In this document: piece by piece, positions 5,501 through 49,733 of the stretch | How positions within the stretch are numbered: position 1 is the first letter of the stretch | Layout: each line of letters begins with the position of its first letter | NCBI GenBank assembly: GCA_965242525.1 | Contig: OZ251459.1 | Coordinates: 2,336,001-2,400,000, forward strand | Reading direction: 5' to 3' | Source: an uncultured Candidatus Binatia bacterium | Lineage (GTDB): Bacteria; Desulfobacterota; Binatia; UBA9968; JAJDTQ01 | Length of the DNA: 64,000 nt | The notes under the pieces: generated by a model | Told to the model about the DNA's origin: nothing | What the model saw: the letters and a program-made list of their open reading frames with translations, nothing else | The model's database searches: none | Position numbers and translations under genes: made by a program

Positions 5501-5512
5501 ACAGGCTCCCTG

Positions 5513-11206: not shown

Positions 11207-11210
11207 GGGT

Positions 11211-12576: not shown

Positions 12577-13078
12577 GGTCCCTTTCCATCCTGATCATTC
12601 CTCCAAAGTACTCTTGCATCGTCCCCCGCGGGATAACAAGCCCGATGGGCAGGACTTGACGGAGAAAATCCACCGAGGTGTCCTCTTCCCCTAACGCTTT
12701 GGTAACGGTGTCGTACCAAGGGGAACCTTTTTGATGAGCCATTGCTGACAACCGTATCGTACTCAAGGGACGGTACCCCTTCCAGATCATGTCTATGAAG
12801 TCGTGAGTCTCTCCATCGGAAACGACCGGACTTCCGGCCATGACTCGAGAAATATCCTCCCCTGCATGACCTGCCAACTTATAGTAGAGGGACGGGAAAA
12901 CAGGTCCCCATGTCCATGCTTCAAGAGCTTCCTCGACCAGAGGCTTCCCGTCTTCAAATCCCAAAAACCATCCATGCGCGAAATAGACGAGTTTGTGAAG
13001 TCTCACAATACCCACTTTCTCTTCGTCACGGCTTGCCAAACCAAGGAAACTATGCGCCACCGCAATCGCTGAAGGCAT
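12554..13078 (-). CDS. Panacea/SocA (DUF4065) antitoxin-domain protein
   Basis: RLHKLVYFAHG...EAWTWGPVFPSLY...LSAMAHQKGSPW; lower GC than flanks. Confidence 0.88.
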   Translation of the reverse strand: MPSAIAVAHSFLGLASRDEEKVGIVRLHKLVYFAHGWFLGFEDGKPLVEEALEAWTWGPVFPSLYYKLAGHAGEDISRVMAGSPVVSDGETHDFIDMIWKGYRPLSTIRLSAMAHQKGSPWYDTVTKALGEEDTSVDFLRQVLPIGLVIPRGTMQEYFGGMIRMERDRVGQEAT

Positions 13079-13159
13079 AAAGCGCTCCGTTGGTCGTGAA
13101 GGATCGTTGAACATGGAGAAAACCCATGGGGCCTTTACCTACCATGGACGGAAAAGTCA

Positions 13160-13379
13160 AACCGTTGCCCTCGTCCATGGCGGAACGGAACCGCGAGTCC
13201 CGTTCCAGGTCGATCCGCACCGAGTCCCCGGCGCACCGGTCCAGGACGGTTTCCACCAGCGTCGTCTTCCCCACCTGCCGCGCCCCGTCCAGCAGGAGCA
13301 CCGGCTTGTGGGGCGCGTCGTCGTCGATGAACCGCCTGAGCTCCCGCTCCTGGCGGCGCGGCACGTACAGGTTTGCCAT
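13160..13379 (-). pseudogene. Truncated AAA_14/DUF4143-type ATPase (5' fragment)
   Basis: PVLLLDGARQVGKTTLV Walker A; recognisable sequence ends after about 70 aa at the junction with the low-GC Panacea segment. Confidence 0.75.
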
Positions 13380-13429
13380 ATTCCATACCTCGACGGGGTA
13401 TAGAAAGCCCAATTCCCTGCCGATCCCAA

Positions 13430-13798
13430 GGAAAGCCTGAACGGTCCCGGAGGAAGAGGCGTCCTTCGACTTCGCTTCGCTACGCTCAGGACGAACGGGT
13501 ACAGGAAGGTCACGGGGAGTAATCCCCCATCCGCGGCTCTATTGTTGGCGCTTCCGGAATTCGTGTGGGTTGCGACACTCTCCACGCACGCGATGATGTC
13601 GCTTCCTCCCATTCCGACCATGCCGTCCCCGGTTTGGCGTCGCAGACGCCCCACCCCGCATTCCCGCAGCTACCCACACCCGTCATTCCCGCGAAAGCGG
13701 GAATCCATCCCCGTTCGTCCTGAGCGTAGCGAAGCGAAGTCGAAGGACGCGCTCTTCCTTCGGAATTGTTCAGAGGTTCCCTGATGTTCAGGGTTTCC
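13430..13798. mobile_element. Composite MITE/REP element: two inverted REP cores, a GTCATTCCCGCGAAAGCGGGAATC palindrome and doubled right ends
   Basis: Left end GGAAAGCCTGAAC; right ends GTTCAGAGGTTCC (13780) and GTTCAGGGTTTCC (13798); flanked by CAA/CAA. Confidence 0.7.
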
Positions 13799-37671: not shown

Positions 37672-38139
37672 ATGGAGTGGATGACGATCCTGCAGGCCGT
37701 GGTCACCGTCGGCTTCGCCGTCCTCGCGCTGGCGGTGACCTTGATGGGGAAGCGCTTCGACGACATGCGCGGGTCCACGGACAACCGCTTCGACGACACG
37801 CGCCATCACACAGACACTCGCTTCGAGGCCGTGGAAAGGCGCTTCGATGACGTGGACCAACGTTTCAACACCGTGGACAAGCGCATCGACGACATGCGCC
37901 ATGACATGGACGAACGCTTCCGCGGCGTGGACAGGCGTTTCGACGACATGGAGAAGCGTTTCGAGGATATGGAGAAACGCTTCGACCAGCGTTTCGAGAA
38001 CATGGACAAGCGCTTTGAAAACATGGACAAGCGTTTCGACGACATGGACAGACGTTTCGACGACATGGCGAAGCGCTTCGACGACATGCGTGGATACCTG
38101 CTGCACGAGCGCGGAGGCGACAGGCCCAGCGCCGCCTGA
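37672..38139 (+). CDS. TM-anchored coiled-coil protein with RFDDMDK heptad repeats
   Basis: MEWMTILQAVVTVGFAVLALAVTLM plus many 7-aa (21-bp) repeats; AGGAG RBS, upstream TACAAT. Confidence 0.82.
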   Translation: MEWMTILQAVVTVGFAVLALAVTLMGKRFDDMRGSTDNRFDDTRHHTDTRFEAVERRFDDVDQRFNTVDKRIDDMRHDMDERFRGVDRRFDDMEKRFEDMEKRFDQRFENMDKRFENMDKRFDDMDRRFDDMAKRFDDMRGYLLHERGGDRPSAA

Positions 38140-38167: not shown

Positions 38168-38917
38168 TTACTTCCGGTCCCTCTTGTTGTCCAAGTACTC
38201 GCTCTGGTCCTTGTAGGCTTCGGCGTCGTAGAGCTCCCTGTCGATTCGATGCAGCAGGTCCTCCCCGGCCACGATGATCTTGCGCTTTTCCGAGACGCCC
38301 TTCCGCGCTAGGGAGATGTTGCGCCGCAGTGACCGTCGGACCACGCCCCTGGTGTCCCAGAACTCCGGAGTGAAGTCCCTGTAGCCGTCCTGGGTCGCCC
38401 TGGCCAACAGGGACAACCCGCCCTTGTAGCTCTCGAGGCCCGCTTCGTCGTCGCCCTGCTGCAACTGGGTCAGTCCCATGACCAGCCAGCCGATCTCGTC
38501 CTCCCGGTTCACCGCCAACGCCCGCGTGAGCACGTCGTAGGCGGCCCGGTACCTGCCCGCGTAATAATAGGCCCGCCCGAGTTGCGTCAGGCTGTCACGG
38601 TACTTGGGGTCCCTGCGGACCACGTACTGGAGGTCCGCGATGGCCTTGCGCGAGTTCCCGCCCTTCCGGCTCTTGCGCAATTCGTCCACGGCGTCGTTGT
38701 ACTTGCCGCCGACGCCGAAACCCGCCGGCCTCCAACACCCCGCCGTGCCCAGGTTCAGGGCTACCAACGCGGCCGCGACCGCCATCCACGCAGTCCTCTT
38801 CGGAAACCCTGAACGATTCCGGCTTGAACCGCATCTCCCTGCGGGAAAGCGCGTCCTTCGACTTCGCTTCGCTACGCTCAGGATGAACGGGGATAATTGT
38901 TCCGAGTTTCCCTTCAT
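38168..38917 (-). CDS. TPR lipoprotein with an in-frame MITE in its N-terminus
   Basis: GAGGA RBS, MK[38-aa insert]RTAWMAVAAALVALNLGTAGC lipobox, TPR helices. Confidence 0.82.
   Translation of the reverse strand: MKGNSEQLSPFILSVAKRSRRTRFPAGRCGSSRNRSGFPKRTAWMAVAAALVALNLGTAGCWRPAGFGVGGKYNDAVDELRKSRKGGNSRKAIADLQYVVRRDPKYRDSLTQLGRAYYYAGRYRAAYDVLTRALAVNREDEIGWLVMGLTQLQQGDDEAGLESYKGGLSLLARATQDGYRDFTPEFWDTRGVVRRSLRRNISLARKGVSEKRKIIVAGEDLLHRIDRELYDAEAYKDQSEYLDNKRDRK
38802..38911. mobile_element. 110-bp MITE with terminal inverted repeats and CTTC target duplication
   Basis: GGAAACCCTGAACGAT...ATTGTTCCGAGTTTCC; CTTC at 38798-38801 and 38912-38915. Confidence 0.85.
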
Positions 38918-39140
38918 CTTCGATTCCTCGTCTTGCGCATGTCTTCGGGATTCCGAACCCCTCGGAACCCCGCCATCGTACACGTGTAGCGCATACGGCT
39001 ACCCGTAACCGTATAATCGAGAAACCACCCGCGGTCAAACCTGCCGTCGCTGTCCCCGCCCCCTCTCCCGCCCGAAACCCGGTTCCGAGTCGTTGACATG
39101 CAGCGGGCGAAGACGATAAGCACCGTTGTCAACATCGGAA

Positions 39141-39283
39141 GGGAACCCTGAACAATCACCTCCGTTCGTCATGAGCGTAGCGAAGCGAAGTCTCCCGTTC
39201 ATCCTGAGCGTAGCGAAGCGAAGTCGAAGGACGGGCTTTCCCACAGGGAGATGCGATTCGAGCCGGAATCGTTCAGGGTTTCC
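39141..39283. mobile_element. 143-bp MITE with GGAA target duplication
   Basis: GGGAACCCTGAACAAT...ATCGTTCAGGGTTTCC; GGAA on both sides; duplicated REP core. Confidence 0.85.
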
Positions 39284-39299
39284 GGAAGGGAGCTGCGCC

Positions 39300-39401
39300 A
39301 TGACAGGGTTCGAAGCCGCGTCCGCCGCCTGCCGGAACGCCGAAGCCTTGCGGTCGCTCGTCAAGGGCATGGAGACCGCGCATGGGGTCCGGGCCGAATG
39401 A
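39300..39401 (+). pseudogene. Collapsed remnant of an MTEFEAA-family coiled-coil gene
   Basis: MTGFEAASAACRNAEALRSLVKGME matches the N- and C-terminal parts of the 44292 and 57000 paralogs, with a similar RBS leader. Confidence 0.6.
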
Positions 39402-40351
39402 ACAGATCCGAACTCGACCGCGTTGTCTTGTCTTCGGCGATGGCTTCCAACACCAAGCTGGCTTATGAAAAGGGCTGGGCCTGTTTCGCCGCGTACTGCG
39501 CCAACGAAAACATCGACGACCCCTTGGCGGCCTCTCCCGACTCCGTGGCCCTTTTCCTGGTTCACTGCGCCACACGGCCCCGTTCCACCAACGGCGTCCC
39601 CCTGTCCATGGGCACCGTCGTCCTCTACAACAGCGCCATCACCAAACGCTACGCCGACGCCGGCAAGACCTCGCCCACCCATCACCCCCTCGTCCGGGCG
39701 ACCCTCAAGGGGCTGGCCCGCGCCAGGGGCACGGCCCCCCGGCGAGTCAAGGCTTTGCGCGAGGAGCACATCCGGGCCATGATCGCCCGATGTCCCGACT
39801 CGGTCATCGGGGTCCGTGACGCCGCCCTTCTCGCCCTCGGCTTCGCCGCGGCCTTGCGCCGGTCGGAACTCTGCGGGTTGTCCGTGGACGACGTGACCGT
39901 CCTGCCGCAGGACCGGGACCATCCCCGGCGGATGCTGCTGACCATCCGCCGGTCCAAGACGGACCAGGCCGGCAACGGCCAGACGATCCCCATCCCGGAA
40001 GGCCGGCTGATTCGCCCCATTGCCCGCGTGCAGGATTGGCTGTCCGCGTCCGGCATCACGCGCGGGCCGCTGTTCCGGGCCATGAGACGGGGCGGCTCCG
40101 TGCAGGAGGGACCGCTGCACAATTCGGACGTTCCGCGCCTGGTCAAGCGCTACGCCGCCCTGATCGGCCTGGACCCCGGGGAGGTGTCGGGCCATTCGCT
40201 GCGGGCAGGCTTCGTGACCAGCGCCGCGGCGCACCGCGCCCGCCTCGACAAGATCATGGCCATCACCCGCCACACCAACCCCGCTACGGTCCTGAAGTAC
40301 ATCCGTGACGCCGAAGCCTTCGCCGACCACGCCGGCGACGGGTTCCTGTAA
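39398..40351 (+). CDS. Cre-like tyrosine site-specific recombinase
   Basis: SAM-like N-terminus; full catalytic set R (RRSEL), K (RSKTDQ), HxxR (HSLR), H (TRH), Y (KYIR). Confidence 0.93.
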   Translation: MNRSELDRVVLSSAMASNTKLAYEKGWACFAAYCANENIDDPLAASPDSVALFLVHCATRPRSTNGVPLSMGTVVLYNSAITKRYADAGKTSPTHHPLVRATLKGLARARGTAPRRVKALREEHIRAMIARCPDSVIGVRDAALLALGFAAALRRSELCGLSVDDVTVLPQDRDHPRRMLLTIRRSKTDQAGNGQTIPIPEGRLIRPIARVQDWLSASGITRGPLFRAMRRGGSVQEGPLHNSDVPRLVKRYAALIGLDPGEVSGHSLRAGFVTSAAAHRARLDKIMAITRHTNPATVLKYIRDAEAFADHAGDGFL

Positions 40352-40375
40352 ACGTTGCCAGCGCCGCCTGCCCAC

Positions 40376-40562
40376 GGAAACCCCGAACAAACATCCCCGT
40401 TCGCCCTGAGCATGGCGAAGCGAAGCATCCCGTTCGTCTGAGCGTAGCGAAGCCCCGTGTCCTGGGGGGAAAAGTGAAGTTCCCCGTGTCCTGAACATGG
40501 CAATGTGAAGTCCCCCCGTTCGTCCTGAGCGTAGCGAAGCGAAGTCGAAGGACGCGCTTTCC
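40376..40562. mobile_element. MITE/REP copy with multiple cores; right end missing
   Basis: GGAAACCCCGAACAA left end, three partial or complete REP cores. Confidence 0.75.
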
Positions 40563-40565
40563 ATA

Positions 40566-40593
40566 GTCCTCGGTTATCTACCTAACTGAGGAC
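40566..40593 (+). other. Putative tyrosine-recombinase site A (11-6-11)
   Basis: GTCCTCGGTTA-TCTACC-TAACTGAGGAC: arms inverted with 1 mismatch; marks the start of porin homology. Confidence 0.7.
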
Positions 40594-41748
40594 AACAACG
40601 AGGAGGGCTACCAGCAGGGCCAGATCCGGATTCGGCGGTTCCGCCCGTCCATCAACGTGACCTCGCAGCAGGGCTTCTACGAAGTGAGGTGGACCTTCAA
40701 CGGAAACAGCGCAGCCTTCGATGGCGACGGCTACCTCCACTTCGAGAAGATGAACCCCTACCTCCCCACGGTGGGATTCGGGTTCAATCCCAGTATCACG
40801 GGCTTGAACGAGAGCGCCTATCGGGTTGAAGACTCCATCCTCGCTGACACTCTGGCTTTCGCAGGGAGCCAGGACCGGAGCCTCGTGTTCGCATGGAACA
40901 AGCTCCCTGCCATGGGAACCGCGAAGGTCGCTTACCTGAACTTCGCCATCGGCCATGACGAGAAGCCGGTCAGCGCCAAGGATACGTATATGGGCACGAC
41001 CGCCTCGGGTGAAGCCGTCACCGTCACGGGTCCCTCGAGGGGGACGGACGAGTACGCGAGGCACCCGGCCGTCACCGACAACTCCCGTTCGATGCTCGTT
41101 ACCCTCGGACTGAAGCCCCTTGGCGCCGCCAAGGCGATGGGGGGCATCGATATGTCCAGCTTCCAGTACGATTTCGCCTACGAGAACCTGAGGAACAGTT
41201 ACAACGAAGGCGGCTTTGCAGGCGGCCTCTGGACCGTCAACGCCACCAAGAATGTCAAATTGGCCAGCCTTGGAAGCGCTGTAGGTGACCACACCTTCGT
41301 GGGGCACGGCCTCCAATGGAGCCCCCTAAAGCCAGTGTCTCTTGCCACTCATTTCATAGACTGGAAGGCCGACGCCGACGCGGGCGTGGCGGCCGACCTG
41401 CGGGCCACCGAGTGGAGGGTTGCGCTCAACATATGGCTGTGGGGTCCCAAGAGCGGCATGATGGGCGGAAGCAAGAGCGAAGGCGGCATCTCCACCTCTC
41501 CGATGTATTCCGTAGTGGACCTGAAAGACATGGGCACCGCACCCAATGGTGTTGCCAAGCCCATCGGCGAAGTGAAGAACCTGGGGTGGGCGGTCGTGTA
41601 CAATGTCCCCGGCGGCTGGATGCAGATCCACGGTATCTGGGACAGGTACGAGTGCGACCCGCAGATTTGTGACCCCGCGGTGGCGCTGGTATCCGAAAAC
41701 GGCAAGTCCTTCAGCACCTTCACCCTGGTCGCAGAGTACAGGTTCTAG
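40579..41748 (+). CDS. Silent (start-less) porin C-terminal cassette, 389 aa, paralog of 46078-47469
   Basis: Open from YLTEDNNEEG to AEYRF; in-frame TAG at 40564; no RBS, start or signal peptide. Confidence 0.85.
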   Translation, partial: YLTEDNNEEGYQQGQIRIRRFRPSINVTSQQGFYEVRWTFNGNSAAFDGDGYLHFEKMNPYLPTVGFGFNPSITGLNESAYRVEDSILADTLAFAGSQDRSLVFAWNKLPAMGTAKVAYLNFAIGHDEKPVSAKDTYMGTTASGEAVTVTGPSRGTDEYARHPAVTDNSRSMLVTLGLKPLGAAKAMGGIDMSSFQYDFAYENLRNSYNEGGFAGGLWTVNATKNVKLASLGSAVGDHTFVGHGLQWSPLKPVSLATHFIDWKADADAGVAADLRATEWRVALNIWLWGPKSGMMGGSKSEGGISTSPMYSVVDLKDMGTAPNGVAKPIGEVKNLGWAVVYNVPGGWMQIHGIWDRYECDPQICDPAVALVSENGKSFSTFTLVAEYRF

Positions 41749-41766
41749 GGTCATCGTTTCGGCTTG

Positions 41767-41823
41767 AAAAGGAGAGAAGGAAGGGCATCCTTTCGGGGAT
41801 GAGCCTCCTTCTCTCCTTTTTTT
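41767..41823 (+). terminator. Intrinsic terminator after the silent porin cassette
   Basis: AAAAGGAGAGAAGGA...TCCTTCTCTCCTTTTTT hairpin plus U-tract. Confidence 0.8.
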
Positions 41824-41909
41824 CTCTCAGGAGGGTTGCAATGAAGGGAACGATTTTGGCGTTGGCGGTAGCAGGCGTGTTGAGTGGATTTAAGGAAGGA
41901 AGGCATCTT

Positions 41910-42209
41910 ATGACACAAATCACGACAGCGACACACGATACGCTCGGTCGTAGCAAAAGGCGTTTGGTTGTACGGGGTCTTGCGTACATCCTCACCGTCG
42001 TCGCTATTGTCTCCGTTGTCTCCGTACTGTTTCGTTTCGACTCGGTGGAAGCGCAGACAACATGCACAAGGGGGGAGGCCGCCGCCGAAGCAGTGAGGCT
42101 CCAAGGCGGATATGTGATATCGGTCTCTCAAAGAAATGGGGAATTTGTCGTCCAAATGATCGACGGTAACGGCAAGCACAGGGAGATCAAAATCCTGCGG
42201 AAATGCTGA
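41910..42209 (+). CDS. Small exported protein, PepSY-like (low GC)
   Basis: Hydrophobic segment then AAAEAVRLQGGYVISVSQRNGEFVVQMIDGNGKHREIKI; start uncertain. Confidence 0.55.
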   Translation: MTQITTATHDTLGRSKRRLVVRGLAYILTVVAIVSVVSVLFRFDSVEAQTTCTRGEAAAEAVRLQGGYVISVSQRNGEFVVQMIDGNGKHREIKILRKC

Positions 42210-42970
42210 AGGCTGCAATTCTTCATGGGAGGTGCCGAATGTTTCGCAAGCCGAACGACATTTTTGCTTCCAACAAAGGCTTGGCGGCCACACGCTTGGT
42301 ACGACACTGGAAACTTGTGTTTTGGCGACTACTCTGGTTTATTGCAATTACAGTTTTGTTCGGACACACTTTAGGTTTGCCTTTCAAGCAAACGGAGCCT
42401 TATCTAACACAAGACATCCATCTTCTTGGTCAGATGTTGCGTTTTGAAATAGAAAACAAGATGAACAACGGAGACACAGAGCAACAAAGTGACAACGATG
42501 ACGGAAGGATCAAGAAGAAGAAGGCGGAGATGATTAGCAAGATTTCGCAAAACCTATTGACCGGCTTAAGTGCTACCTGGTACTTTGTTTGTGTTACTCA
42601 TAGCGGAGAATTCTTGGCAGGAGCCCCAGCGTCCGCCAAGCATTGGTGCGATGGAGATACCATAGAGAAGCATTCTTCTGGTAATCTACACAAGAAGTAC
42701 TATGTTGTGCAAGCGCGTAAGTCCGGAGGTATAGAGATACCTACAACGCTCCATTCTGTGAAGGATGGATATGGAAGCGGCTTTCACCTCTGGGTGGTTA
42801 AGAGACTTCAAGCAGAGCAAGTAGATCCGATATATTATTTGATCCAAAATAACTTTGTTCATGTCGTGCTGATACTTGGAATAATAGTGCTTTCCACGTA
42901 TGCTCTAGGGCATTTCATTCGGCAGGAAAGTCGATCCAAGAATGATTCCGGCGGAGAAAGAGTCGACTGA
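42203..42970 (+). CDS. Low-GC two-TM protein with extracytoplasmic domain
   Basis: 255-aa ORF in AT-rich DNA; TM near the N-terminus and near the C-terminus. Confidence 0.65.
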   Translation: MLKAAILHGRCRMFRKPNDIFASNKGLAATRLVRHWKLVFWRLLWFIAITVLFGHTLGLPFKQTEPYLTQDIHLLGQMLRFEIENKMNNGDTEQQSDNDDGRIKKKKAEMISKISQNLLTGLSATWYFVCVTHSGEFLAGAPASAKHWCDGDTIEKHSSGNLHKKYYVVQARKSGGIEIPTTLHSVKDGYGSGFHLWVVKRLQAEQVDPIYYLIQNNFVHVVLILGIIVLSTYALGHFIRQESRSKNDSGGERVD

Positions 42971-43203
42971 ACCCTGCGATACAGAAGGGTTATGGGCAAG
43001 AGGTGATCGAACCACTCCATTGGAGATACACATCAAGGATACCGAGATGGAAGTAGATGGCGTCACGGAAGCGCTGGCGATTGCGATAGCTGCAGACACG
43101 GTGCCCCAACCCCTGGAGGTGCTGTTTCGCAGGGCCGCGAACTCTTTCCACCGCTGACGCTTCAGGTTCTCGGGGTTCCCGAGCCACGGGTAGCGGGCGC
43201 CTT

Positions 43204-43878
43204 TCAGCCGTTGCGCCCCTTCTCCCGGCAGCTTGCGCTGTTCCTGTCGCCACGCAAGCTACTTCCCGTCGCTCTCAGAAAAGCCCCTGTCCGAGATTCG
43301 TCCTTCAGGAATCGGGTCGCCTCGCCCATGTACAGGCAATTACGCATCTGTTGCCGGGACAGGGGGACCCCGCCGTTCACTCGCTCGAAGATGTCCAGTC
43401 GAGCCTGTTCGGGAACCTTCGCGTCGATGACGTACAGGATCAGGTTGCAGTCCTCGACGCGATTTTGTAGCTTGGGCGTCAGATCTTCGAATTTCTTGCT
43501 GTTCAGTTCGGGCCGGTCCTCAAGTCAAAGCTGGAGTTCGTTGTTCACGAAACGCTGGAAGGTGGTCAGCCTTTGCAGCCCGTCCACGACCACCAGACGT
43601 TCCCGGTCGTCCTCCGCGAGATAGAAGACGGGCAGAGGGATCCGCATCACCACGGACTCGATCAGTCTGCTCTGCTTGTCCGGATCCCAGATGAAGTCAC
43701 GCTGGAAGGCCGGATCCATCACGAAGGCTCCCCGCTCTATCCTGCGCAGAACATCGTGCACAGTGCGGGTCTCGTTCCGTATCAGCAGGGTGTCGATGGG
43801 ATAGTCGCCCCAGGAGGCGGCTTTGTCGTCTCCCAGACCTTCGATCTTCTCAGGCTCGGTGTCGGTGGGTGTCGTCAT
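43204..43878 (-). pseudogene. DUF262 (ParB-like, GmrS-type) gene with internal stop and 3' truncation
   Basis: PAFQRDFIW, VVDGLQRLTT, in-frame TGA at 43525, then LDIFERVNGGVPLSRQQMRN in the same frame. Confidence 0.85.
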
Positions 43879-43980
43879 GTTACTTGCCCTGTGTTGACCA
43901 GGCGTAGCGCACATCCCGGCCCACGTACCTGGCCAGACGCGAAAGGGTGGCGGCGCCGGCCGTTACCGGCGCGGCAGATG

Positions 43981-44259
43981 CTACCACTCCCAATACCAGG
44001 CGGAGAGAATGTCGCGGCCCACGTAATCGACCAACCGCCAGAGGACGACGGTGGCGGCCAGACAGAGCGCGGCCACGGGGATGGTGAGCCACCACCACCA
44101 GAAGCCGACCAGGTAGCCCAGGACGGCCAGAATCAGCAACGCTCCGGTCGTCCCTCCCGCAAGTCCCATGACTCCCATAACGACAAGCTGAAGGTCGAGC
44201 TTCCCGGCGTCACTCATACGGGCAAGGCGGCGGTCCAGCCGTGCTTTCAGGCGTGTCAT
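43981..44259 (-). CDS. Small two-TM membrane protein
   Basis: 92 aa, GGAGGGAG RBS, hydrophobic with FWWWWL. Confidence 0.65.
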   Translation of the reverse strand: MTRLKARLDRRLARMSDAGKLDLQLVVMGVMGLAGGTTGALLILAVLGYLVGFWWWWLTIPVAALCLAATVVLWRLVDYVGRDILSAWYWEW

Positions 44260-44291
44260 GGCGGTTCTCCCTCCCGTGGCGGCGCCGGCCG

Positions 44292-44804
44292 TTACTGGCG
44301 CGGCGCGGTCCGTTCGATGACGGCCTCCATGCTCTTGACCGCGGCGCGCAAGCTCTCGCCCTGCTGCCGTAGTGCTTCCATTGCTTCGGCGTGGCGCTGG
44401 TCAGCTTCGGCGCGCTGCGCTTCGGCTTGGTGGCGCTGCGCTTCCATCTGCGCCTCGACTTGGCGGCGCTGCGCTTCCGTCTGCGCTTCGATCTGGCGGT
44501 GCTGCGCTTCGGCTTGGCTGCGTTGTGCTTCGGCTTGGCGGTGCTGCGCTTCGATCTGCGCTTCGATCTGGCGGTGCTGCGCTTCGGCTTGGCTGCGCTG
44601 CGCTTCTATCTGCGCTTCGATCTGGCGGGCGCGGTCCCGGTTGGACCTGTCCATGACCCGGATACCCCGGAGGACCACGAAGATCTGACCGAGGCCCACC
44701 AGTCCGGTGACGAGCGGGATGGCGACAGCGGCCCAAAACTGTAGCTGCTGCAAGGCAAGCGCGGCCTGCTGGTAGGCTACCGTTGCGGCTTCGAACTCCG
44801 TCAT
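44292..44804 (-). CDS. MTEFEAA-family TM-anchored coiled-coil protein with EAQ repeats
   Basis: TM followed by QAEAQRRQ/QIEAQ tandem repeats; paralog of 57000-57824. Confidence 0.8.
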   Translation of the reverse strand: MTEFEAATVAYQQAALALQQLQFWAAVAIPLVTGLVGLGQIFVVLRGIRVMDRSNRDRARQIEAQIEAQRSQAEAQHRQIEAQIEAQHRQAEAQRSQAEAQHRQIEAQTEAQRRQVEAQMEAQRHQAEAQRAEADQRHAEAMEALRQQGESLRAAVKSMEAVIERTAPRQ

Positions 44805-44880
44805 GGCGTGTCTCCCTTCCTCCCCTCCGGCAGCGGCCGCTACTGGCCCGGCGCTGCATGGCCGTAGCGCAACCTGGCAA

Positions 44881-45015
44881 GCGCGTCCTTCGACTCCGCT
44901 TCGCTACGCTCAGGACGAACGGGGATGGGACGCTTCACTACGCCCGGGACGAACGGGGACAGGAGGATCAGGATGAGGGAATCCATCCTGGACGTCTCGA
45001 TTGTCCAGAGGTTCC
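44881..45015. mobile_element. MITE/REP family copy
   Basis: REP core and right end ATTGTCCAGAGGTTCC. Confidence 0.75.
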
Positions 45016-45145
45016 TATCGTCTTCGACCGCCGCCTGTCAACGACCCGGACCGAGGTTCCGTGCGGGAAGGGTTGCCGGGAGTGCGAGGGCAAGGCGATG
45101 TTTCGTTCGGTCGGGATGGGAGCAAAGCGGGGCCACGGCAGCAGC

Positions 45146-45553
45146 TCAACGCCGTCCTTCGATCTCGTTCCGGGCCGCGCTGGACAGGAAGGCCGAGCGG
45201 GTCATGCCGCGGCGCTTCGCTTCGTCGTCGATGGCCTGGAGCAGGCCGTAGTCCAGAGAGACGTTGACACGCCGCGGAGAACCCTTGTCGAGGACGAGAG
45301 GAACGAAGGCCATGTCCGAGCCTTCCCGCCACTCGGCAAGGCTCGGGTCGGCCTTGATCTCCCCGACAGCGCGCGGTTCCGGGACCGCTTCCCCGTCCTC
45401 GATCATGCCCTCGACGTGAAAGGCCAACGCCGCGGCGCCGCGTTGGATCGTCTCCTCCACGGTGTCGCCATCCGATACACACCCGGGAAAGTCGGGGAAG
45501 CTGATGCCGAAACCGGGGCCGTCACCACCGTGGATGAACGCGACGTAGCGCAT
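45146..45553 (-). CDS. hicB: HicB antitoxin (RHH C-terminus)
   Basis: FGISFPDFPGCVSDGDT...RRVNVSLD...RGMTRSAFL. Confidence 0.93.
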   Translation of the reverse strand: MRYVAFIHGGDGPGFGISFPDFPGCVSDGDTVEETIQRGAAALAFHVEGMIEDGEAVPEPRAVGEIKADPSLAEWREGSDMAFVPLVLDKGSPRRVNVSLDYGLLQAIDDEAKRRGMTRSAFLSSAARNEIEGRR

Positions 45554-45565
45554 GGGATCCTCCTT

Positions 45566-45754
45566 TCACTTCCAGCCAGCCTGCCTGTAGATCGAGACAA
45601 CCGTACCTCGTTTGAGGTCCCTGTTCGGGTGGGGCACCGTGACGCGGCTTCTTCTGACAGGATTCTTGAACTGGTAATGACTGCCCCTGGTGGCGACAAG
45701 AAACCATCCATCCCGTTTCAAGAGCCTGATCAACTTGCGACTGTCACGTTCCAT
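45566..45754 (-). CDS. hicA: HicA mRNA interferase toxin
   Basis: LLKRDGW...GSHYQFK...VTVPHP..DLKRGTVVSIYRQAG. Confidence 0.93.
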   Translation of the reverse strand: MERDSRKLIRLLKRDGWFLVATRGSHYQFKNPVRRSRVTVPHPNRDLKRGTVVSIYRQAGWK

Positions 45755-45766
45755 GCCCTGCCATCT

Positions 45767-45786
45767 TTGTGTATTAAAATACACAA
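45767..45786. promoter_or_regulatory. Palindromic operator, probably HicB autoregulation
   Basis: TTGTGTATT-AA-AATACACAA perfect inverted repeat 12 bp upstream of hicA. Confidence 0.7.
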
Positions 45787-45894
45787 TTTCGACAGCTCGG
45801 ACAACCACCCTGAAGACCTCTCCAGGACTCTGTGTGGGTATAGACCGGTAACATGGTTTACACGGCAAGGGGTGTCGGCAAGGAGGGAGAGATA

Positions 45895-45975
45895 AGCGCG
45901 CCCTTCGACTCCGCTTCGCTACGCTCACTCAGGACGAACGGGGACAGGAGGGTCAGGATGAGGGAATCCATCTCC
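45895..45975. repeat. REP/MITE family copy
   Basis: CCCTTCGACTCCGCTTCGCTACGCTCA...GGACGAACGGGG...GGGAATCCATC. Confidence 0.75.
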
Positions 45976-46020
45976 AAGGGGTGAAGCGGTTGGACGGGGG
46001 CGAGGGGCGGGGGCGGACGT

Positions 46021-46053
46021 AAAAAGGGGCCGTCCCCGGAAGGACAGCCCCTC
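46021..46053 (-). terminator. Intrinsic terminator of the full-length porin gene
   Basis: Minus strand AGGGGCTGTCC-TTCCGG-GGACGGCCCCT followed by TTTT. Confidence 0.8.
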
Positions 46054-46077
46054 TTGTTTCAAGCCGAAACGATGACC

Positions 46078-47469
46078 CTAGAACCTGTACTCTGCGACCA
46101 GGGTGAAGGTGCTGAAGGACTTGCCGTTTTCGGATACATCCTCCACGTTGTCGGCACACACCAACGGGTCGCACTCGTACCGGTCCCAGATACCGTGGAT
46201 CTGCATCCAGCCGCCGGGGACATGGTACACGACCGCCCAACCCAGGTTCTTCACTTCGCCGATGCCCTTGTCAGCGCCCTCGTCGTCCACGCCGGTGTCC
46301 TTGAGGTCGATGACGGAATACATCGGAGAGGTGGAGATGCCGCCTTCGCTCTTGCTTCCGCCCATCATGCCGCTCTTGGGACCCCACAGCCATACGTTGA
46401 GCGCAACCCTCCACTCGGTGGCCTTCAGGTCAGCCGTCACGCCACTGTCGGCGTCGGCCTTCCAGTCGATGAAATGGGCAGCCAACGAGACCGGCTTGAG
46501 GGGACTCCACTGGAGGCCGTGTCCCACGAAGGTGTGGTCGCCCACAGCCTTTCCGAGGTTGGCCAACTCGACCTGCTTGGTGGCGTTGGTGGTCTTGAGC
46601 ACGGCGGCGCCTTCGTTGTAACCGTTGCTCAGGCCCTCGTAGGCGAAGTCGTACTGGAGGCTGCTCATGTCGATGCCGCCCATGCTCTTGGAGGCGCCAA
46701 GTGGCCTCAGGCCGAGGGTGAAGAGCATCGAACGGGAGTTGTCGCTGACGTCTGGATGCTTGCCGTACTCATCCATTTCGTCGTGGCCGATGGCGAAGTT
46801 CAGGAAGGCGACCTTCGCGGCTCCCATGTTGGGGAGCTTGTTCCATGCGAGCACGAGGCTCCGGTCCTGGCCTCCGGCGAAGCCCAGGTTGTCAGCGAGG
46901 ATGGAGTCTTCAACCCGGTAGGCTCCCTCGCTCAAGCCCTTGATGCTGGGGTTGAACCCGAATCCCACCGTGGGGAGGTAGGGGTTCATCTTCTCGAAGT
47001 GGAGGTAGCCATCGCCATCAAAGGCCGCGTCTTGGGAGCCGCCGCCGTTGAAGGTCCACTTCACTTCGTAGAAGCCCTGCTGCGAGGTCACGTTGATGGA
47101 CGGGCGGAACCGCCGAATCCGGATCTGGCCCTGCTGGTAGCCCTCCTCGTCGTTGTCCTCCGTTAGGTAGAATGTCGAGAAGAGCTGCAGCCTCTGGGTG
47201 AAGTTGATGCTCCAGTTGTTGTCCGCGGCAGCGATGGTCAGGCCCTTGCCGGCGCCGTACTTGAAGCTCGGCATCTTCATCTCGGCGGCGAGGGCGCGCT
47301 CTTCGTCAACCGTCTCCTGCCTCTGCTTCAACTCGGCGATCTGGCGCTCCAGGTCGGCGATCTTGGCATCCACCTCGCTGGCCTGTAGCGGGGATGCCGC
47401 AAACGTCATTGCTCCAACCAAAAACAGGGCACTCGCGATGCCAAGCGCCCGCCTCGAGAGTTTTTTCAT
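46078..47469 (-). CDS. Outer-membrane beta-barrel porin (OprP/OprO-like), full length
   Basis: AGGAGG RBS, signal peptide, short coiled coil, GKGLTIAAADNNWSINFTQRLQ, RIRRFRP, C-terminal AEYRF. Confidence 0.82.
   Translation of the reverse strand: MKKLSRRALGIASALFLVGAMTFAASPLQASEVDAKIADLERQIAELKQRQETVDEERALAAEMKMPSFKYGAGKGLTIAAADNNWSINFTQRLQLFSTFYLTEDNDEEGYQQGQIRIRRFRPSINVTSQQGFYEVKWTFNGGGSQDAAFDGDGYLHFEKMNPYLPTVGFGFNPSIKGLSEGAYRVEDSILADNLGFAGGQDRSLVLAWNKLPNMGAAKVAFLNFAIGHDEMDEYGKHPDVSDNSRSMLFTLGLRPLGASKSMGGIDMSSLQYDFAYEGLSNGYNEGAAVLKTTNATKQVELANLGKAVGDHTFVGHGLQWSPLKPVSLAAHFIDWKADADSGVTADLKATEWRVALNVWLWGPKSGMMGGSKSEGGISTSPMYSVIDLKDTGVDDEGADKGIGEVKNLGWAVVYHVPGGWMQIHGIWDRYECDPLVCADNVEDVSENGKSFSTFTLVAEYRF
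47155..47182 (-). other. Putative recombinase site B inside the porin gene
   Basis: Minus strand CTTCTCGACAT-TCTACC-TAACGGAGGAC: same spacer and near-identical inner arm as site A, in inverted orientation. Confidence 0.65.
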
Positions 47470-47704
47470 GACCTCCTCCTTCTAACCGAAAGTGTGCCGA
47501 CACGGGAACGTCGGCCCGGAACGAACAAAAATCTTACGGGAAGTTATCTACTAATTCTACGGCCCTCCCGCAACTGACCGAAAGTACACTTTTCCCCGAA
47601 AACACCCTGTCAACGGTTCAGAGGGATAGGCCGAAAGTTGCAAACATCGACAAAAATGGGTAGAGTGTCGCCGAACTTGTGGAAAACATCGGAGGATTCC
47701 AGCC

Positions 47705-48361
47705 ATGGAGTCGATAAGGATCGTGGTCGCCGACGACCATACACTGTTTCGCGCGGGTTTGAAACGGTTGCTGACGCGGGAGAAGGACCTGCTGGTGACC
47801 GGGGAGGCGGGGCGGGCCGAGGATACGGAGCCCGCGGTGGCCAGGGGCAAGGCCGACGTGCTGTTGCTGGACCTCAGGATGCCGGGCGGCGATGCGGTGC
47901 AGACGCTGCTGGACCTGGAGGAGCGGCGCCCCCGGACCCGGACGGTGATCCTCACCGCGTTCGACCACGAGGACGGCATACTCGACACGGCCAAGGCCGG
48001 GGCCCGGGGCTACGTGCTCAAGGGGGTTTCGCCCACGACCCTCTTCCAGGCCATACGGACCGTCCACGAGGGGGGGATCTGGATCGATCCGGGGCTGCCC
48101 CAGGCCGGCGAGTTCTCGGCCATCGCCTCGCGGCGGACCAGGACGGAGCCGTCGAGGAAGGAGCCCGACGGCATCGACACCCTGAGCCGGCGGGAGATGG
48201 AGGTGCTGCGGCTGGTGGCCGAGGGGCTCTCCAACGAAGAGATCGCCGCCAACACCTTCATCAGCGAACGCACCGTCAAGGCCCACCTGGCCAACATCTT
48301 CGGCAAGCTCCAGGTGAACAACCGGGTCAAGGCGGCGCTCGCGTTCCTGAGGAGGGGTTGA
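47705..48361 (+). CDS. NarL/LuxR-family response regulator
   Basis: VADDH, LLDLRMP, GARGYVLK, LSRREMEVL...TVKAHLANIFGKL. Confidence 0.95.
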   Translation: MESIRIVVADDHTLFRAGLKRLLTREKDLLVTGEAGRAEDTEPAVARGKADVLLLDLRMPGGDAVQTLLDLEERRPRTRTVILTAFDHEDGILDTAKAGARGYVLKGVSPTTLFQAIRTVHEGGIWIDPGLPQAGEFSAIASRRTRTEPSRKEPDGIDTLSRREMEVLRLVAEGLSNEEIAANTFISERTVKAHLANIFGKLQVNNRVKAALAFLRRG

Positions 48362-48365
48362 GGGG

Positions 48366-48407
48366 GCGTCCTTCGACTTCGCTTCGCTACGCTCAGGACG
48401 AACGGGG
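48366..48407. repeat. REP core overlapping the MFS stop codon
   Basis: GCGTCCTTCGACTTCGCTTCGCTACGCTCAGGACGAACGGGG. Confidence 0.85.
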
Positions 48408-49733
48408 AGGGGTGTTCCCGATCCTCGATTTACCGCGCTCCTCGTCCACCCGTTGGACCAGCGCCAGCCCGACGACGAAGAACACCAGCACCACGGCCAT
48501 GCCCGCGCGCTGGGAGCCGAACAGGCGCGTCAGCTCGCCCAGCAGGAAAGGGCCTACGAAGGCGGTGGCCTTGCCCGAGAAGGCGAACAGCCCGTAGAGC
48601 TCGTTCTTCTTGTCGGGCGGCGCGAAGCGGCCCAGGAGGGAGCGGCTGGCGGCCTGGTTGGGGCCGGCGCACAGGCCGATGAGGAGGCCGGCGCCCCAGA
48701 AGAGCGTCCGCTTGGCGGCGAGGAGGGCCGTCAGGGACGCCAGGATGAAGCCCACCAGGCTGATCTGGATGGTGCGCTTGCCGCCCAGCCGGTCGTCCAC
48801 GAACCCGAGGGCGAAAGCGCCTGCGCCCGCGGCCACGTTGAGGACCAGGCCGAAGACCAGCAACTCCTCGAAGGTGAAGCCGAAGACGCCGGCCGCGTAG
48901 ATGCCGCCGAAGGCGAAGACGGTGTTCAGCCCGTCGGCGTAGAAGAGACGGGCCAGCAACAGCCGGAAGATGTCGGGGTAGCGGCGGACTTGGCGGAAAG
49001 TCGCTGCCAACTGCCGGAAGGAGTCGGACAGGGGCGCCCGCAAGGCGTGTGCGGACGCGGGCCGTTCCCGCACCCAAAGGAAGAACGGCACGCTGAACAC
49101 GGCGAACCAGACGGCCACCAGCAGGTTGGTGGCGCGGATGTGCTGGTAGCCTTCCCTGGCGAGGCCGAACCAGGGGGTCTCCGCGTCCACGAAGCCCACC
49201 AGGGCGATGCCCAGAGCGCTCAGGCCGCCCACGTAGCCCAGGGCCCAGCCGTAGCCCGAGACCCGGCCGATGCGGTCCGGCGGCGCCACGTCGGGCAGGA
49301 AAGCGTTGTAGAACACCCCGCCCAGCTCGAAGGCGACGTTGGCCAAGGTGAACCAGAACAGCGCCTTGGTCACCTGGCCGGGCATGGCGGTGTAGAGAAA
49401 GGCCGCGCCGACCACGGCCATCGCGGTGAAGGAGCCGAGGAAGCGTTTGCGGTGGCCCACCCGGTCGGCCAGGGCGCCCAGGAGCGGCGACAGCAACGCC
49501 ACCGCGACCGCGGTCAAGCTGACGCTCCGGGACCACAGCCACGTGCCCGTGACCTCGTCGGGAGCGATGACCTTGGTGAAGAACGCGGCGTAGATGAAGG
49601 TGACCACGAGGGTCGTGAAGGCGGAGTTGGCGAAGTCGTAGAAGCACCAAGCGACGATGCCGCGGCGGTCGGTGGGGGGGACGGGGTAGCTGGTGGGGGG
49701 GTTGGGAGGGTTGGCGGGGCGGTCGGTGGACAT
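48393..49733 (-). CDS. MFS transporter (UMF1/Atg22-like)
   Basis: AWCFYDFANSAF, YNAFLP, GRVSGYGWALGYVGG, GPNQAASRS. Confidence 0.92.
   Translation of the reverse strand: MSTDRPANPPNPPTSYPVPPTDRRGIVAWCFYDFANSAFTTLVVTFIYAAFFTKVIAPDEVTGTWLWSRSVSLTAVAVALLSPLLGALADRVGHRKRFLGSFTAMAVVGAAFLYTAMPGQVTKALFWFTLANVAFELGGVFYNAFLPDVAPPDRIGRVSGYGWALGYVGGLSALGIALVGFVDAETPWFGLAREGYQHIRATNLLVAVWFAVFSVPFFLWVRERPASAHALRAPLSDSFRQLAATFRQVRRYPDIFRLLLARLFYADGLNTVFAFGGIYAAGVFGFTFEELLVFGLVLNVAAGAGAFALGFVDDRLGGKRTIQISLVGFILASLTALLAAKRTLFWGAGLLIGLCAGPNQAASRSLLGRFAPPDKKNELYGLFAFSGKATAFVGPFLLGELTRLFGSQRAGMAVVLVFFVVGLALVQRVDEERGKSRIGNTPPRSS

What the first reader, a model, noticed from the sequence alone, without database searches (positions are those of the whole stretch)
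39398..47469. Candidate porin shufflon: recombinase plus an invertible 6.6-kb segment that swaps the porin barrel
Seen: an intact Cre-like tyrosine recombinase lies directly upstream of a 389-codon porin cassette (40579-41748, +). The cassette has no start, RBS or signal peptide, yet it is fully open and has its own terminator. A full-length paralog (46078-47469, -) points toward it from 6.6 kb away. Homology starts abruptly at TCTACCTAAC. Inverting 40577-47171 would fuse the constant first 100 aa (signal peptide, coiled coil, first strands) in frame to the other cassette. Established: the R64 pilV shufflon (Rci) swaps C-termini by tyrosine-recombinase inversion, and Dichelobacter omp1 varies by inversion. 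Inference: this is a two-state switch of an OprP-like porin for phage-receptor or host evasion, or for permeability change. I know of no description of it for this porin/recombinase pair.
Basis: partly seen in the sequence, partly recalled or inferred. Interest (0 to 1): 0.92.

Follow-up and report, generated by a model that had tools for sequence, protein, structure and literature searches.

The report
Invertible porin-barrel cassette switch
An uncultured bacterium keeps a silent spare copy of most of its main outer-membrane pore next to a DNA-flipping enzyme, laid out so that one inversion would swap the pore's surface loops, but the flip itself has not been seen.

Summary
A 317-aa Cre/Xer-like tyrosine recombinase (39398-40351) lies beside a start-less, open 389-codon porin cassette (40579-41748). 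The cassette is an inverted copy of codons 101-463 of a full porin gene (46078-47469, minus strand). Inverting 40577-47171 in silico gives an in-frame 489-aa porin.

New evidence favours a programmed switch:
- The cassette boundary is GGTTA-N6-TAAC, found once in the 4.23-Mb genome.
- The same arm-spacer-arm layout bounds silent specificity-domain cassettes beside recombinase homologues at two restriction-modification loci, one in another phylum.
- Nine species of the genus have this recombinase beside a head-to-head porin pair. Their spacer lies in one orientation in 3 species and the other in 6.
- The cassette is truncated at the same base in a sister species, with dN/dS 0.25.
- Related porins with identical first 103 residues differ by 10-16% from residue 104 on.

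Against: no flipped state was found in assembled contigs, the sister genome or public proteins.

Verdict: probably (about 0.6) an active two-cassette inversion switch of an OprP-fold porin. This is a new variant of a known kind. RecA-driven exchange alone is the main rival.

The parts
39398..40351 (+). Tyrosine recombinase (317 aa), Cre/Xer-like. It is the only member of its family in this genome.
   Evidence: Pfam PF00589 E 7.7e-14. PDB: XerD 5.6e-7, Cre 3e-5 over residues 30-306, catalytic residues aligned. Single copy in G000.
40376..40563 (.). Copies of a genome-wide short repeat (MITE-like) between recombinase and cassette. More copies lie upstream at 38794-39291.
   Evidence: At least 58 matches in the genome. 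Absent from the same junction in G023.
40566..40593 (+). Site A, a full dyad: GTCCTCGGTTA - TCTACC - TAACTGAGGAC. 11-nt inverted arms (10 of 11 match) around a 6-nt spacer. Homology with the expressed gene starts at the spacer.
   Evidence: GGTTA-N6-TAAC occurs once in the window (expected 0.02) and once in the whole genome. The left arm is identical in G023.
40579..41748 (+). Silent cassette A: 389 codons plus stop, equal to porin residues 101-463, with a 27-aa loop insertion.
   Evidence: dN/dS 0.254 against the G023 cassette.
41766..41826 (+). Terminator hairpin of cassette A
   Evidence: -35.2 kcal/mol, z -4.6.
41770..46056 (.). Passenger DNA that would invert with the cassettes. It holds a low-GC insert with two ORFs (41799-42970), a GmrSD_N fragment (43525-43914, minus), a membrane ORF and a coiled-coil ORF, and HicB/HicA (45146-45928, minus).
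   Evidence: The content differs in G023. The low-GC part has low depth in the variant strain of run X10.
46018..46062 (-). Terminator hairpin of the expressed porin
   Evidence: -26.4 kcal/mol, z -5.6.
46078..47169 (-). Cassette B: codons 101-463 plus stop of the expressed porin.
47155..47182 (-). Site B inside the expressed gene: CTTCTCGACAT - TCTACC - TAACGGAGGAC. It has the same spacer and right arm as site A, but its left arm is unlike A's and codes for LFSTF.
   Evidence: TCTACCTAACNGAGG occurs without mismatch only at sites A and B in the genome.
47170..47469 (-). Constant 5' part of the porin gene (codons 1-100): signal peptide, coiled coil, first four short strands.
   Evidence: AlphaFold2 model: helices 2-25 and 30-51, strands 68-101.
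47470..47704 (-). Upstream region of the porin gene. By eye it keeps a remnant (GTAGAATTAGTAGATAACT, 47560-47542) of the promoter-side spacer of the relatives.
   Evidence: One search compared by eye. blastn found no significant match, so this is weak.

Best explanation
The locus is a programmed-inversion switch that exchanges about four fifths of an OprP-fold porin.

The expressed gene (minus strand) consists of a constant part and cassette B. The constant part holds the promoter, signal peptide, coiled coil and first strands (codons 1-100).

A silent cassette A lies 4.3 kb away in the opposite orientation, directly downstream of a Cre/Xer-like tyrosine recombinase.

The recombinase is proposed to pair site A (GGTTA-TCTACC-TAACT, beside its own gene) with site B (GACAT-TCTACC-TAACG, inside codons 97-106). 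It would exchange strands within the shared 6-nt spacer and invert 40577-47171.

Cassette A, with its own terminator, would then be read behind the constant part as a 489-aa porin, and cassette B would become silent.

The two cassettes differ mainly in alternate loops of the barrel model, the ones I assign by topology to the cell surface. The likely benefit is escape from phages or other agents that recognise the porin surface.

Homologous recombination between the 1.2-kb inverted cassettes probably adds mosaic variants.

Shown: the anatomy, the in-frame product, the fold, the site architecture and its recurrence, the genus-wide recombinase-porin link, and selection on the silent copy.
Inferred: that the recombinase acts on these two sites, that the segment still flips, and the benefit.
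For: 1. Site.
- GGTTA-N6-TAAC sits exactly at the homology boundary. It is the only such sequence in the window (expected 0.02) and in the genome (1 hit; reversed control 3 hits).
- In G023 the cassette is cut at the same base, with GTCCTCGGTTA-TCTACA-TAACCAAGGAC. DNA further upstream is unrelated.

2. The same architecture at homologues' loci.
- A Poribacteria contig (L040) has a 55%-identical recombinase beside a silent TaqI_C specificity cassette of an Eco57I-type methylase gene. Cassette side: CGGTTA-ATCCAT-TAACT. Gene side: GATAT-ATCCAT-TAACT. The repeat is 173 nt at 100%.
- G010 has a 67%-identical paralogue beside the same kind of gene and cassette. Cassette side: GGGTA-AGCGAT-TAACT. 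Gene side: GATAT-AGCGAT-TTACC.
- In all three cases the full site is next to the recombinase, the spacer is shared, and the gene-side left arm is GAYAT.

3. Genus context.
- 9 of 9 genomes with a head-to-head porin pair have the recombinase orthologue beside it, in conserved synteny.
- The conserved asymmetric spacer element points to the recombinase-proximal porin in 3 of 9 and to the distal one in 6 of 9.
- On the recombinase tree this needs at least 2 changes forced by well-supported branches, 3 by parsimony.

4. Selection.
- Cassette A against the G023 cassette: 384 codons, dN 0.096, dS 0.377, ratio 0.254. The expressed parts give 0.323.
- 15 of 16 silent cassettes of the clade keep the C-terminal ...Y(R/K/W)F end.

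5. Decoupled histories at the site.
- Of 55 pairs of full-length porins, 12 have identical residues 1-103.
- 11 of those 12 are only 84-90% identical afterwards, with first differences at residues 104-109 in most.
- The expressed/silent label needs 9 changes on the cassette tree, against a shuffled mean of 8.7.

6. No other substrate.
- The recombinase has no paralogue in G000.
- G000 has one TaqI_C domain and no spare one.

7. Product.
- The inverted form is in frame.
- The model (pLDDT 75.8) matches OprP 2o4v (E 7e-14) and OprO.
Against: No flipped state was observed.
- G000 and G023 are in the same state: short-loop cassette expressed, long-loop cassette silent.
- The 27-aa loop occurs in 5 of 16 silent cassettes and in 0 of 11 expressed genes.
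- No expressed/silent pair from different records exceeds 92% identity.
- Public runs were available only as assembled contigs, which break in the repeats. In X7 and X8 one contig (47121-48392, no differences) shows the reference junction. No opposite-strand joint at the sites is among those listed, but 24 joints were not shown.

Site B has only one good arm.

In G023 the recombinase is about 1.9 Mb from the porin locus, with no repeat nearby.

The porins of the nine pair-bearing relatives lack this codon-100 site. Their switch uses a different site in the 5' untranslated region.

The sharp boundary at residue 104 and the mosaic cassettes would also arise from RecA-dependent exchange with a cassette that simply starts there.
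Confidence: 0.6

Rival explanations
1. Silent-donor system without site-specific inversion. Cassette A is kept as a reservoir. Variation of the expressed porin arises by RecA-dependent gene conversion or by homologous crossovers between the 1.2-kb inverted repeats. The GGTTA-N6-TAAC site is a scar of the one-off event that created the truncated copy, and the recombinase no longer acts here.
For: - Within-genome dS between cassettes A and B (0.28 in G000, 0.27 in G023) is lower than between species (0.30-0.38).
- The first 20 codons after the site are 97% identical within G000, but 83-90% identical to their orthologues.
- Cassettes are mosaic, and same-contig pairs cluster together (P0004/P0026, P0003/P0022).
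- No clean flipped state was found.
- The recombinase of G023 is not at the locus.
- DNA left of site A resembles, by eye, an inverted porin 5' leader plus ATG, as a recombination scar would.
Against: - The same full-site and half-site architecture occurs at two restriction-modification cassette loci. One of them has a 100% identical 173-nt repeat.
- The left arm is identical in G000 and G023 despite unrelated DNA beyond it.
- Silent cassettes are as variable as expressed ones and are under purifying selection. This fits reciprocal exchange better than one-way donation.
- The recombinase is intact and has no other evident substrate in G000.
Confidence: 0.22
2. The recombinase belongs to a mobile unit and its position next to the cassette is incidental. 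It is flanked by MITE-like repeats and has moved between G000 and G023. The cassette is a leftover of a duplicated porin.
For: - MITE copies lie on both sides of the gene and are abundant in the genome.
- The orthologue lies elsewhere in G023.
- G011's orthologue sits at a restriction-modification locus.
Against: - 9 of 9 head-to-head porin pairs in the genus have the orthologue beside them, in conserved synteny.
- The only full site in the genome abuts the cassette.
- The family's other members sit beside invertible cassettes, not at element ends.
Confidence: 0.08
3. Decaying pseudogene: a 5'-deleted porin copy with no function.
For: - There is no start codon, ribosome-binding site or signal peptide.
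- High G+C content keeps frames open by chance.
- 1 of 16 silent cassettes (P0023) has an aberrant C-terminal tail.
Against: - dN/dS is 0.254 over 384 codons at dS 0.377.
- The same truncation point and an open frame are kept in two species and in about 15 further cassette ORFs from public assemblies.
- The cassette keeps its own terminator.
Confidence: 0.05

Closest known systems
R64 shufflon (Rci recombinase, pilV C-terminal segments)
   Same: A tyrosine recombinase inverts DNA within a coding region, so alternative C-terminal segments join a constant N-terminal part. The sites are asymmetric, with conserved spacer and right arm and a variable left arm. I saw this in passages of the Introduction of 10.1101/2024.10.25.620183. 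Here site B also has a good right arm and an unlike left arm.
   Different: - R64 has seven sfx sites and four segments; here there are two sites and one segment.
- sfx has 12-nt arms and a 7-nt spacer; here the core arms are about 5-11 nt and the spacer 6 nt.
- The target there is a pilus adhesin, not a porin.
- This enzyme aligns with Cre/XerD over its whole length. I did not compare it with Rci.
Dichelobacter nodosus Omp1 inversion model (Moses et al. 1995)
   Same: Antigenic variation of a major outer-membrane protein is attributed to site-specific inversions among linked gene copies. I saw this in a passage of PMC4196234 and in the reference lists of PMC4196234 and PMC5903667. I did not read the 1995 paper.
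   Different: That system has four linked omp1 genes and a multiple-inversion model. I did not check its recombinase or sites. The organism, phylum and porin family are different and were not compared by sequence.
Gene-altering programmed inversions of restriction-modification specificity domains (Eco57I-type, PglX, HsdS)
   Same: The recombinase's homologues at L040 and L049 sit in this arrangement: a full Eco57I/TaqI_C gene, an inverted silent TaqI_C cassette and an adjacent recombinase. A survey lists Eco57I-domain, PglX, HsdS, PilV, tail-fibre and SusC genes as enriched targets (passages of PMC9881135).
   Different: The target here is a 16-strand-type porin barrel. The word 'porin' does not occur in the main text of that survey. 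Its supplements were not available to me.
Promoter-inversion switches such as the E. coli fim switch (recalled)
   Same: Nine relatives have a 290-450-nt spacer with a conserved asymmetric element. It is bounded by inverted repeats, lies beside a tyrosine recombinase, and is found in both orientations.
   Different: There the element sits between two alternative porin genes, so a flip would swap alleles rather than turn one gene on or off. In the window itself the promoter side is fixed and the coding cassettes would move.
Cre/loxP and XerCD/dif
   Same: The protein aligns to Cre over both domains and to XerD over the catalytic domain. The 6-nt spacer with roughly 11-nt arms resembles dif as I recall it.
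   Different: Identity is low (E 1e-5 to 1e-7). No NCBIfam Xer model reaches its cut-off. The role proposed here is inversion between unlike sites, not dimer resolution or plasmid maintenance.

Membership tests
Tyrosine recombinase (Phage_integrase fold, Cre/Xer-like) | Catalytic domain match | tested here: met
   PF00589 E 7.7e-14, 52.3 bits against a cut-off of 27.1.
Tyrosine recombinase (Phage_integrase fold, Cre/Xer-like) | Catalytic Arg, His-x-x-Arg, His and Tyr nucleophile | tested here: met
   The alignment to XerD 1a0p shows aalRRsel, gHslRag, trHtn and lkYi opposite the XerD residues. The Lys of the hairpin was not checked.
Tyrosine recombinase (Phage_integrase fold, Cre/Xer-like) | N-terminal core-binding domain as in Cre | tested here: met
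   The Cre alignment spans query residues 30-306 and Cre residues 33-310.
Shufflon / gene-altering programmed inversion | Inverted crossover sites with a shared spacer, one in the expressed gene and one at a silent cassette | tested here: met
   Sites A and B share TCTACC and TAAC. The same layout occurs at L040 and L049.
Shufflon / gene-altering programmed inversion | Inversion yields an in-frame alternative protein | tested here: met
   489-aa frame, computed in silico.
Shufflon / gene-altering programmed inversion | Both orientations present in a population or among close strains | tested here: inconclusive
   Not seen in contigs of 4 runs, in G023 or in public proteins. Raw reads were not available.
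Shufflon / gene-altering programmed inversion | Several invertible segments (shufflon in the strict sense) | tested here: not met
   There are only two porin copies and two sites in the genome.
Shufflon / gene-altering programmed inversion | The recombinase catalyses the inversion | not testable with these tools
   Needs an experiment.
OprP/OprO-type porin | Beta-barrel porin fold like OprP | tested here: met
   AlphaFold2 model with pLDDT 75.8 and pTM 0.71. Foldseek top hits are 2o4v OprP (E 7e-14, TM 0.61/0.68) and 4rjw OprO.
OprP/OprO-type porin | Sequence-family match (a Pfam or NCBIfam porin model) | tested here: not met
   No porin family in Pfam up to E 10, none in NCBIfam up to E 1, and no PDB sequence hit up to E 1. 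It is OprP-like by fold only.
OprP/OprO-type porin | Arginine ladder / phosphate selectivity | not tested
   Not examined.
Promoter-inversion switch (in the nine relatives) | Repeat-bounded segment found in both orientations, with an adjacent recombinase | tested here: met
   Orientation split is 3 of 9 against 6 of 9. The recombinase is adjacent in 9 of 9.
Promoter-inversion switch (in the nine relatives) | A promoter inside the segment | tested here: inconclusive
   A conserved TTGCAT-17 nt-TAGAAA element was read by eye. There is no transcript data.

The most novel reading that the evidence does not exclude
One family of Cre-like invertases, shared between uncultured Binatia and Poribacteria, serves as a general cassette-swapping tool. 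Its basal members switch restriction-enzyme specificity domains. Within a single Binatia genus it has been recruited to the major porin locus in two architectures, possibly independently.
- One architecture flips a promoter between two complete porin alleles.
- The other, in this window, swaps twelve or so strands of the barrel behind a constant signal peptide, coiled coil and first strands.

The recombinase of the window branches outside the clade of promoter-flipping enzymes, and its site resembles the restriction-modification type.
Probability: 0.3. Interest if true: 0.8.

Novelty: new variant of a known kind. Interest (0 to 1): 0.62.

Why it matters
Programmed inversions that rewrite genes are known for pilus adhesins, tail fibres, restriction specificity subunits and SusC-type transporters. 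A classical trimeric-type porin barrel has not, as far as my searches show, been described as a target. Searches turned up no such case, and 'porin' is absent from the main text of the survey PMC9881135.

If the switch is active, three things follow:
- A beta-barrel can be rebuilt from a constant first part and interchangeable remainders.
- There is a defined core site (GGTTA-N6-TAAC) and at least three natural enzyme-site pairs for testing.
- There is a case, in an uncultured lineage, of one invertase family used for both phage-defence specificity and a likely phage receptor.

The genus also offers a natural series for studying how such switches arise: single porin, tandem pair, head-to-head pair with flipping spacer, and full gene plus silent cassette.

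Tried and rejected
- Reads. The look-up of sequencing runs listed 11 runs. Four were laid (X7, X8, X10, X11). All are assembled contigs that break at the MITEs and inside the repeat. They show the reference junction and no flipped one among the rows listed. This neither supports nor excludes inversion.
- The metagenome-contig scan with cassette A gave only one distant hit at 22% identity.
- The genus holds only 28 species genomes. The cassette arrangement occurs only in G000 and G023, both in the same state.
- Search for the same cassette silent in one record and expressed in another: the best pair is 92% identical.
- blastn of the relatives' promoter-side spacer against the regions upstream of the G000 and G023 porin and cassette found no significant hit. 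The similarities I describe there are by eye.
- Codon-100 site in the relatives' porins: absent.
- More distant recombinase homologues (L041-L044, 30-37% identity) showed nothing clear.
- The G011 locus (L051) has the recombinase beside a pair of TaqI_C-like cassettes, but the gene is interrupted and I could not define its site.
- The G023 recombinase locus (L039) has no repeat or porin nearby.
- The consensus promoter/terminator scan missed both terminators and gave no usable promoter.
- The first structure request found no free place and was repeated later.
- I did not reconstruct how the cassette arrangement arose from the head-to-head one. Several paths are possible and none is shown.


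Full report
**1. The observation**

The window holds a 1.2-kb inverted repeat. It runs in four blocks of 98%, 90%, 84% and 86% identity, between 40577-41769 and 46057-47171.

The minus-strand copy is part of a 463-codon gene (46078-47469) with a ribosome-binding site and a signal-peptide-like start.

The plus-strand copy (40579-41748) is open for 389 codons. It is preceded by an in-frame TAG at 40564-40566, and its first in-frame start codon is the GTG at 40657. It aligns to residues 101-463 of the full protein, with 303 of 392 columns identical and a 27-residue insertion.

Each copy has its own strong terminator hairpin. These are the only copies in the 4.23-Mb assembly.

Directly upstream lies a 317-aa tyrosine recombinase. 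It matches PF00589 (E 7.7e-14). It aligns to Cre over both domains and to XerD with the catalytic residues in place.

**2. What the porin is**

No Pfam, NCBIfam or PDB sequence match exists.

An AlphaFold2 model from 49 relatives (pLDDT 75.8, pTM 0.71) shows an N-terminal helix, a coiled coil (residues 30-51) and a beta-barrel from residue 68. Foldseek ranks OprP (2o4v, E 7e-14) and OprO first. It is OprP-like by fold, not by sequence family.

The differences between the two cassettes cluster at residues 141-149, 229-245 (the insertion), 286-300, 393-403 and 434-450. In the model these are alternate inter-strand loops, on the side opposite the C-terminal strand's end. I infer from topology that this is the cell-surface side.

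**3. The junction is a recombination site**

At the cassette the sequence reads GTCCTCGGTTA-TCTACC-TAACTGAGGAC. That is 11-nt inverted arms (10 of 11 match) around a 6-nt spacer, and homology to the expressed gene starts at the spacer.

The expressed gene has CTTCTCGACAT-TCTACC-TAACGGAGGAC: the same spacer and right arm, but an unlike left arm.

GGTTA-N6-TAAC occurs once in the window (0.02 expected) and once in the whole genome. TCTACCTAACNGAGG occurs without mismatch only at these two places.

The sister species G023 (porin 84% identical) has the same layout. Its cassette is cut at the same base, with GTCCTCGGTTA-TCTACA-TAACCAAGGAC. DNA further upstream is unrelated, and the MITE of the window is absent. 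So the MITE did not make the truncation, and the left arm has been kept.

**4. The same architecture beside homologous recombinases**

A genome-contig scan with the recombinase found a 55%-identical homologue on a contig titled Candidatus Poribacteria (L040). It lies next to a 1176-aa Eco57I/N6_Mtase/TaqI_C gene and an inverted, silent TaqI_C cassette that is 46% identical to the expressed domain. The repeat is 173 nt at 100%. The cassette side reads CGGTTA-ATCCAT-TAACT and the gene side GATAT-ATCCAT-TAACT.

In G010, a 67%-identical paralogue lies next to the same kind of gene and cassette. Its sites are GGGTA-AGCGAT-TAACT and GATAT-AGCGAT-TTACC.

Three loci, two target gene families and two phyla thus share one plan:
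- a full site next to the recombinase at the silent cassette;
- a gene-side site with a GAYAT left arm;
- an identical 6-nt spacer;
- homology that starts at the spacer.

This is the strongest argument that sites A and B are substrates of the adjacent enzyme. The asymmetry recalls Rci's sfx sites, with conserved spacer and right arm and a variable left arm (passages in the Introduction of 10.1101/2024.10.25.620183).

**5. The genus**

The genus has 28 species genomes, one of them titled Candidatus Binatia.

Between the same flanking genes (MFS transporter, response regulator ... TPR protein, nucleotidyltransferase) four layouts occur:
- a single porin (for example G011, G014);
- a tandem porin-TPR duplication (G024);
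- a head-to-head pair of complete porins, 93-99% identical within a genome (nine genomes);
- the full gene plus silent cassette (G000, G023).

All nine head-to-head pairs have the recombinase orthologue (71-77% identical) beside them.

Of the 24 other genus genomes searched for the recombinase, 12 have a match:
- eight at the porin pair;
- G023 elsewhere in the genome;
- G011 at a restriction-modification locus;
- G018 on a short contig;
- G003, a weak fragment.

G042 was added by locus search. G041 and G043 were not searched for the recombinase.

The pairs' repeats end at TAACTCTGATTACC in the 5' leader. The 290-450-nt spacer carries a conserved asymmetric element (..CAATTGCATG..AAAAAGTAGAAAG..). 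It points to the recombinase-proximal porin in G005, G006 and G010, and to the distal one in the other six. On the recombinase tree this needs at least two changes.

Inversion of that spacer has therefore happened repeatedly. That it carries the promoter is my reading by eye. These relatives lack the codon-100 site. Their site (GGTAA-TCAGAG-TTAC) differs from that of the window.

On a wider recombinase tree, the enzymes at restriction-modification loci are basal. The G000/G023 enzyme branches outside the clade of the nine promoter-flipping ones.

**6. Is the silent cassette maintained and exchanged?**

Cassette A against its G023 orthologue gives dN/dS 0.254 (384 codons, dS 0.377), no worse than the expressed parts at 0.323.

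A protein search found nine further full-length porins (77-90% identical) and about fifteen start-less cassette ORFs of the same clade. Three exp/silent pairs share a contig length. Of the 14 further cassettes examined, 10 read SSVIY and one SSIIY before the cassette. 15 of 16 silent cassettes keep the normal C-terminus.

Among 55 pairs of full-length proteins, 12 are identical over residues 1-103. Yet 11 of those 12 are only 84-90% identical afterwards, and first differences fall at residues 104-109 in most.

On a tree of 27 cassettes, the expressed/silent label needs 9 changes, like shuffled labels at 8.7.

Cassettes thus have a history decoupled from both flanks, with the break at the site. 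This fits reciprocal swapping. But exchange by homologous recombination with a cassette that starts there would give the same boundary. Within-genome dS (0.27-0.28) below the between-species values, together with mosaic loops, shows that homologous exchange also occurs.

**7. What is missing**

No flipped state was seen.
- G000 and G023 are in the same state.
- The long loop occurs in 5 of 16 silent cassettes and 0 of 11 expressed genes.
- No expressed/silent pair exceeds 92% identity.
- The only public data were assembled contigs, which cannot span the repeat.

In G023 the recombinase is remote. In G000 it is the only one of its family and there is no spare TaqI_C cassette, so the porin pair is its only evident substrate.

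**8. Verdict**

The most likely reading (about 0.6) is an active, recombinase-driven two-cassette switch of a porin barrel, supplemented by homologous exchange.

The main rival (about 0.2) is a silent-donor system in which the site is a relic. A mobile-element coincidence and a dead pseudogene are unlikely.

Compared with what is in print, this is a new variant of gene-altering programmed inversion. The literature I compared with:
- a survey of gene-altering inversions, PMC9881135, seen as passages; 'porin' is absent from its main text and its supplements were not seen;
- intragenic inversions, PMC10028968, seen as a search listing only;
- the D. nodosus Omp1 model, cited in PMC4196234, seen as a passage.

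It differs in its target (an OprP-fold porin), in its lineage, and in the coexistence of two switch architectures in one genus.

Noticed in passing
L040 (Candidatus Poribacteria contig) 2506-8011: An Eco57I/TaqI_C restriction-modification gene with an inverted silent specificity cassette and a 173-nt perfect repeat, next to a recombinase 55% identical to the window's. A reverse-transcriptase gene (9181-10872, minus strand) lies beside it. It looks like an active specificity switch in a defence island.
   Followed up: partly
L049 = G010:C1:3122000-3138000, 7772-13470: A second recombinase paralogue in a genome that also has the porin-pair switch. It sits beside a 1295-aa Eco57I/TaqI_C gene and a silent TaqI_C cassette. 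G010 also holds a truncated third copy (L050 7693-8298).
   Followed up: partly
L051 = G011:C1:2214000-2230000, about 200-8425: The recombinase orthologue (76% identical) lies beside two inverted TaqI_C-like cassettes with a 112-nt perfect repeat. The upstream part of the gene is separated from them by about 3.5 kb of inserted DNA. The site could not be defined.
   Followed up: partly
window 38794-39291, 40376-40563, 44875-44960, 45891-45941, 48359-48417: A short repeat with the core CCCGTTCGTCCTGAGCGTAGCGAAGCGAAGTCGAAGGAC, often in inverted pairs. It has at least 58 matches in the genome, and its word depth reaches the thousands in public contigs. It flanks the recombinase on both sides.
   Followed up: partly
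window 41799-42970: A low-GC stretch (44-52% against 60-70% around it) with two ORFs that have no Pfam match. In the variant strain of run X10 its depth is about 0-8, against about 10-270 in most other bins. It is probably a strain-specific insertion inside the would-be invertible segment.
   Followed up: no
window 45146-45928 (minus strand): A HicB antitoxin and HicA toxin pair (Pfam E 2.6e-28 and 9.8e-21), with a GmrSD_N fragment at 43525-43914. These are defence or addiction genes riding between the two cassettes.
   Followed up: no
window 44400-44650 and 38000-38083: In-frame tandem repeats of 21-54 nt inside coiled-coil ORFs (AEAQ..QIEAQ repeats; DKRFENM/DKRFDDM repeats). Related coiled-coil ORFs recur near the porin locus in G023 and other relatives.
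   Followed up: no
L046 = G024:C1:3474000-3486000; L012 1981-1996: G024 has a tandem duplication of the porin-TPR unit and no recombinase match. One of its porins contains a palindromic GGTTA-N6-TAACC about 160 codons in. This may be chance.
   Followed up: no
L032 (G020) 5879-7500: The MFS transporter match next to the response regulator lies on the opposite strand compared with the other eight loci. This suggests a further local rearrangement, or a match to the antisense open frame.
   Followed up: no
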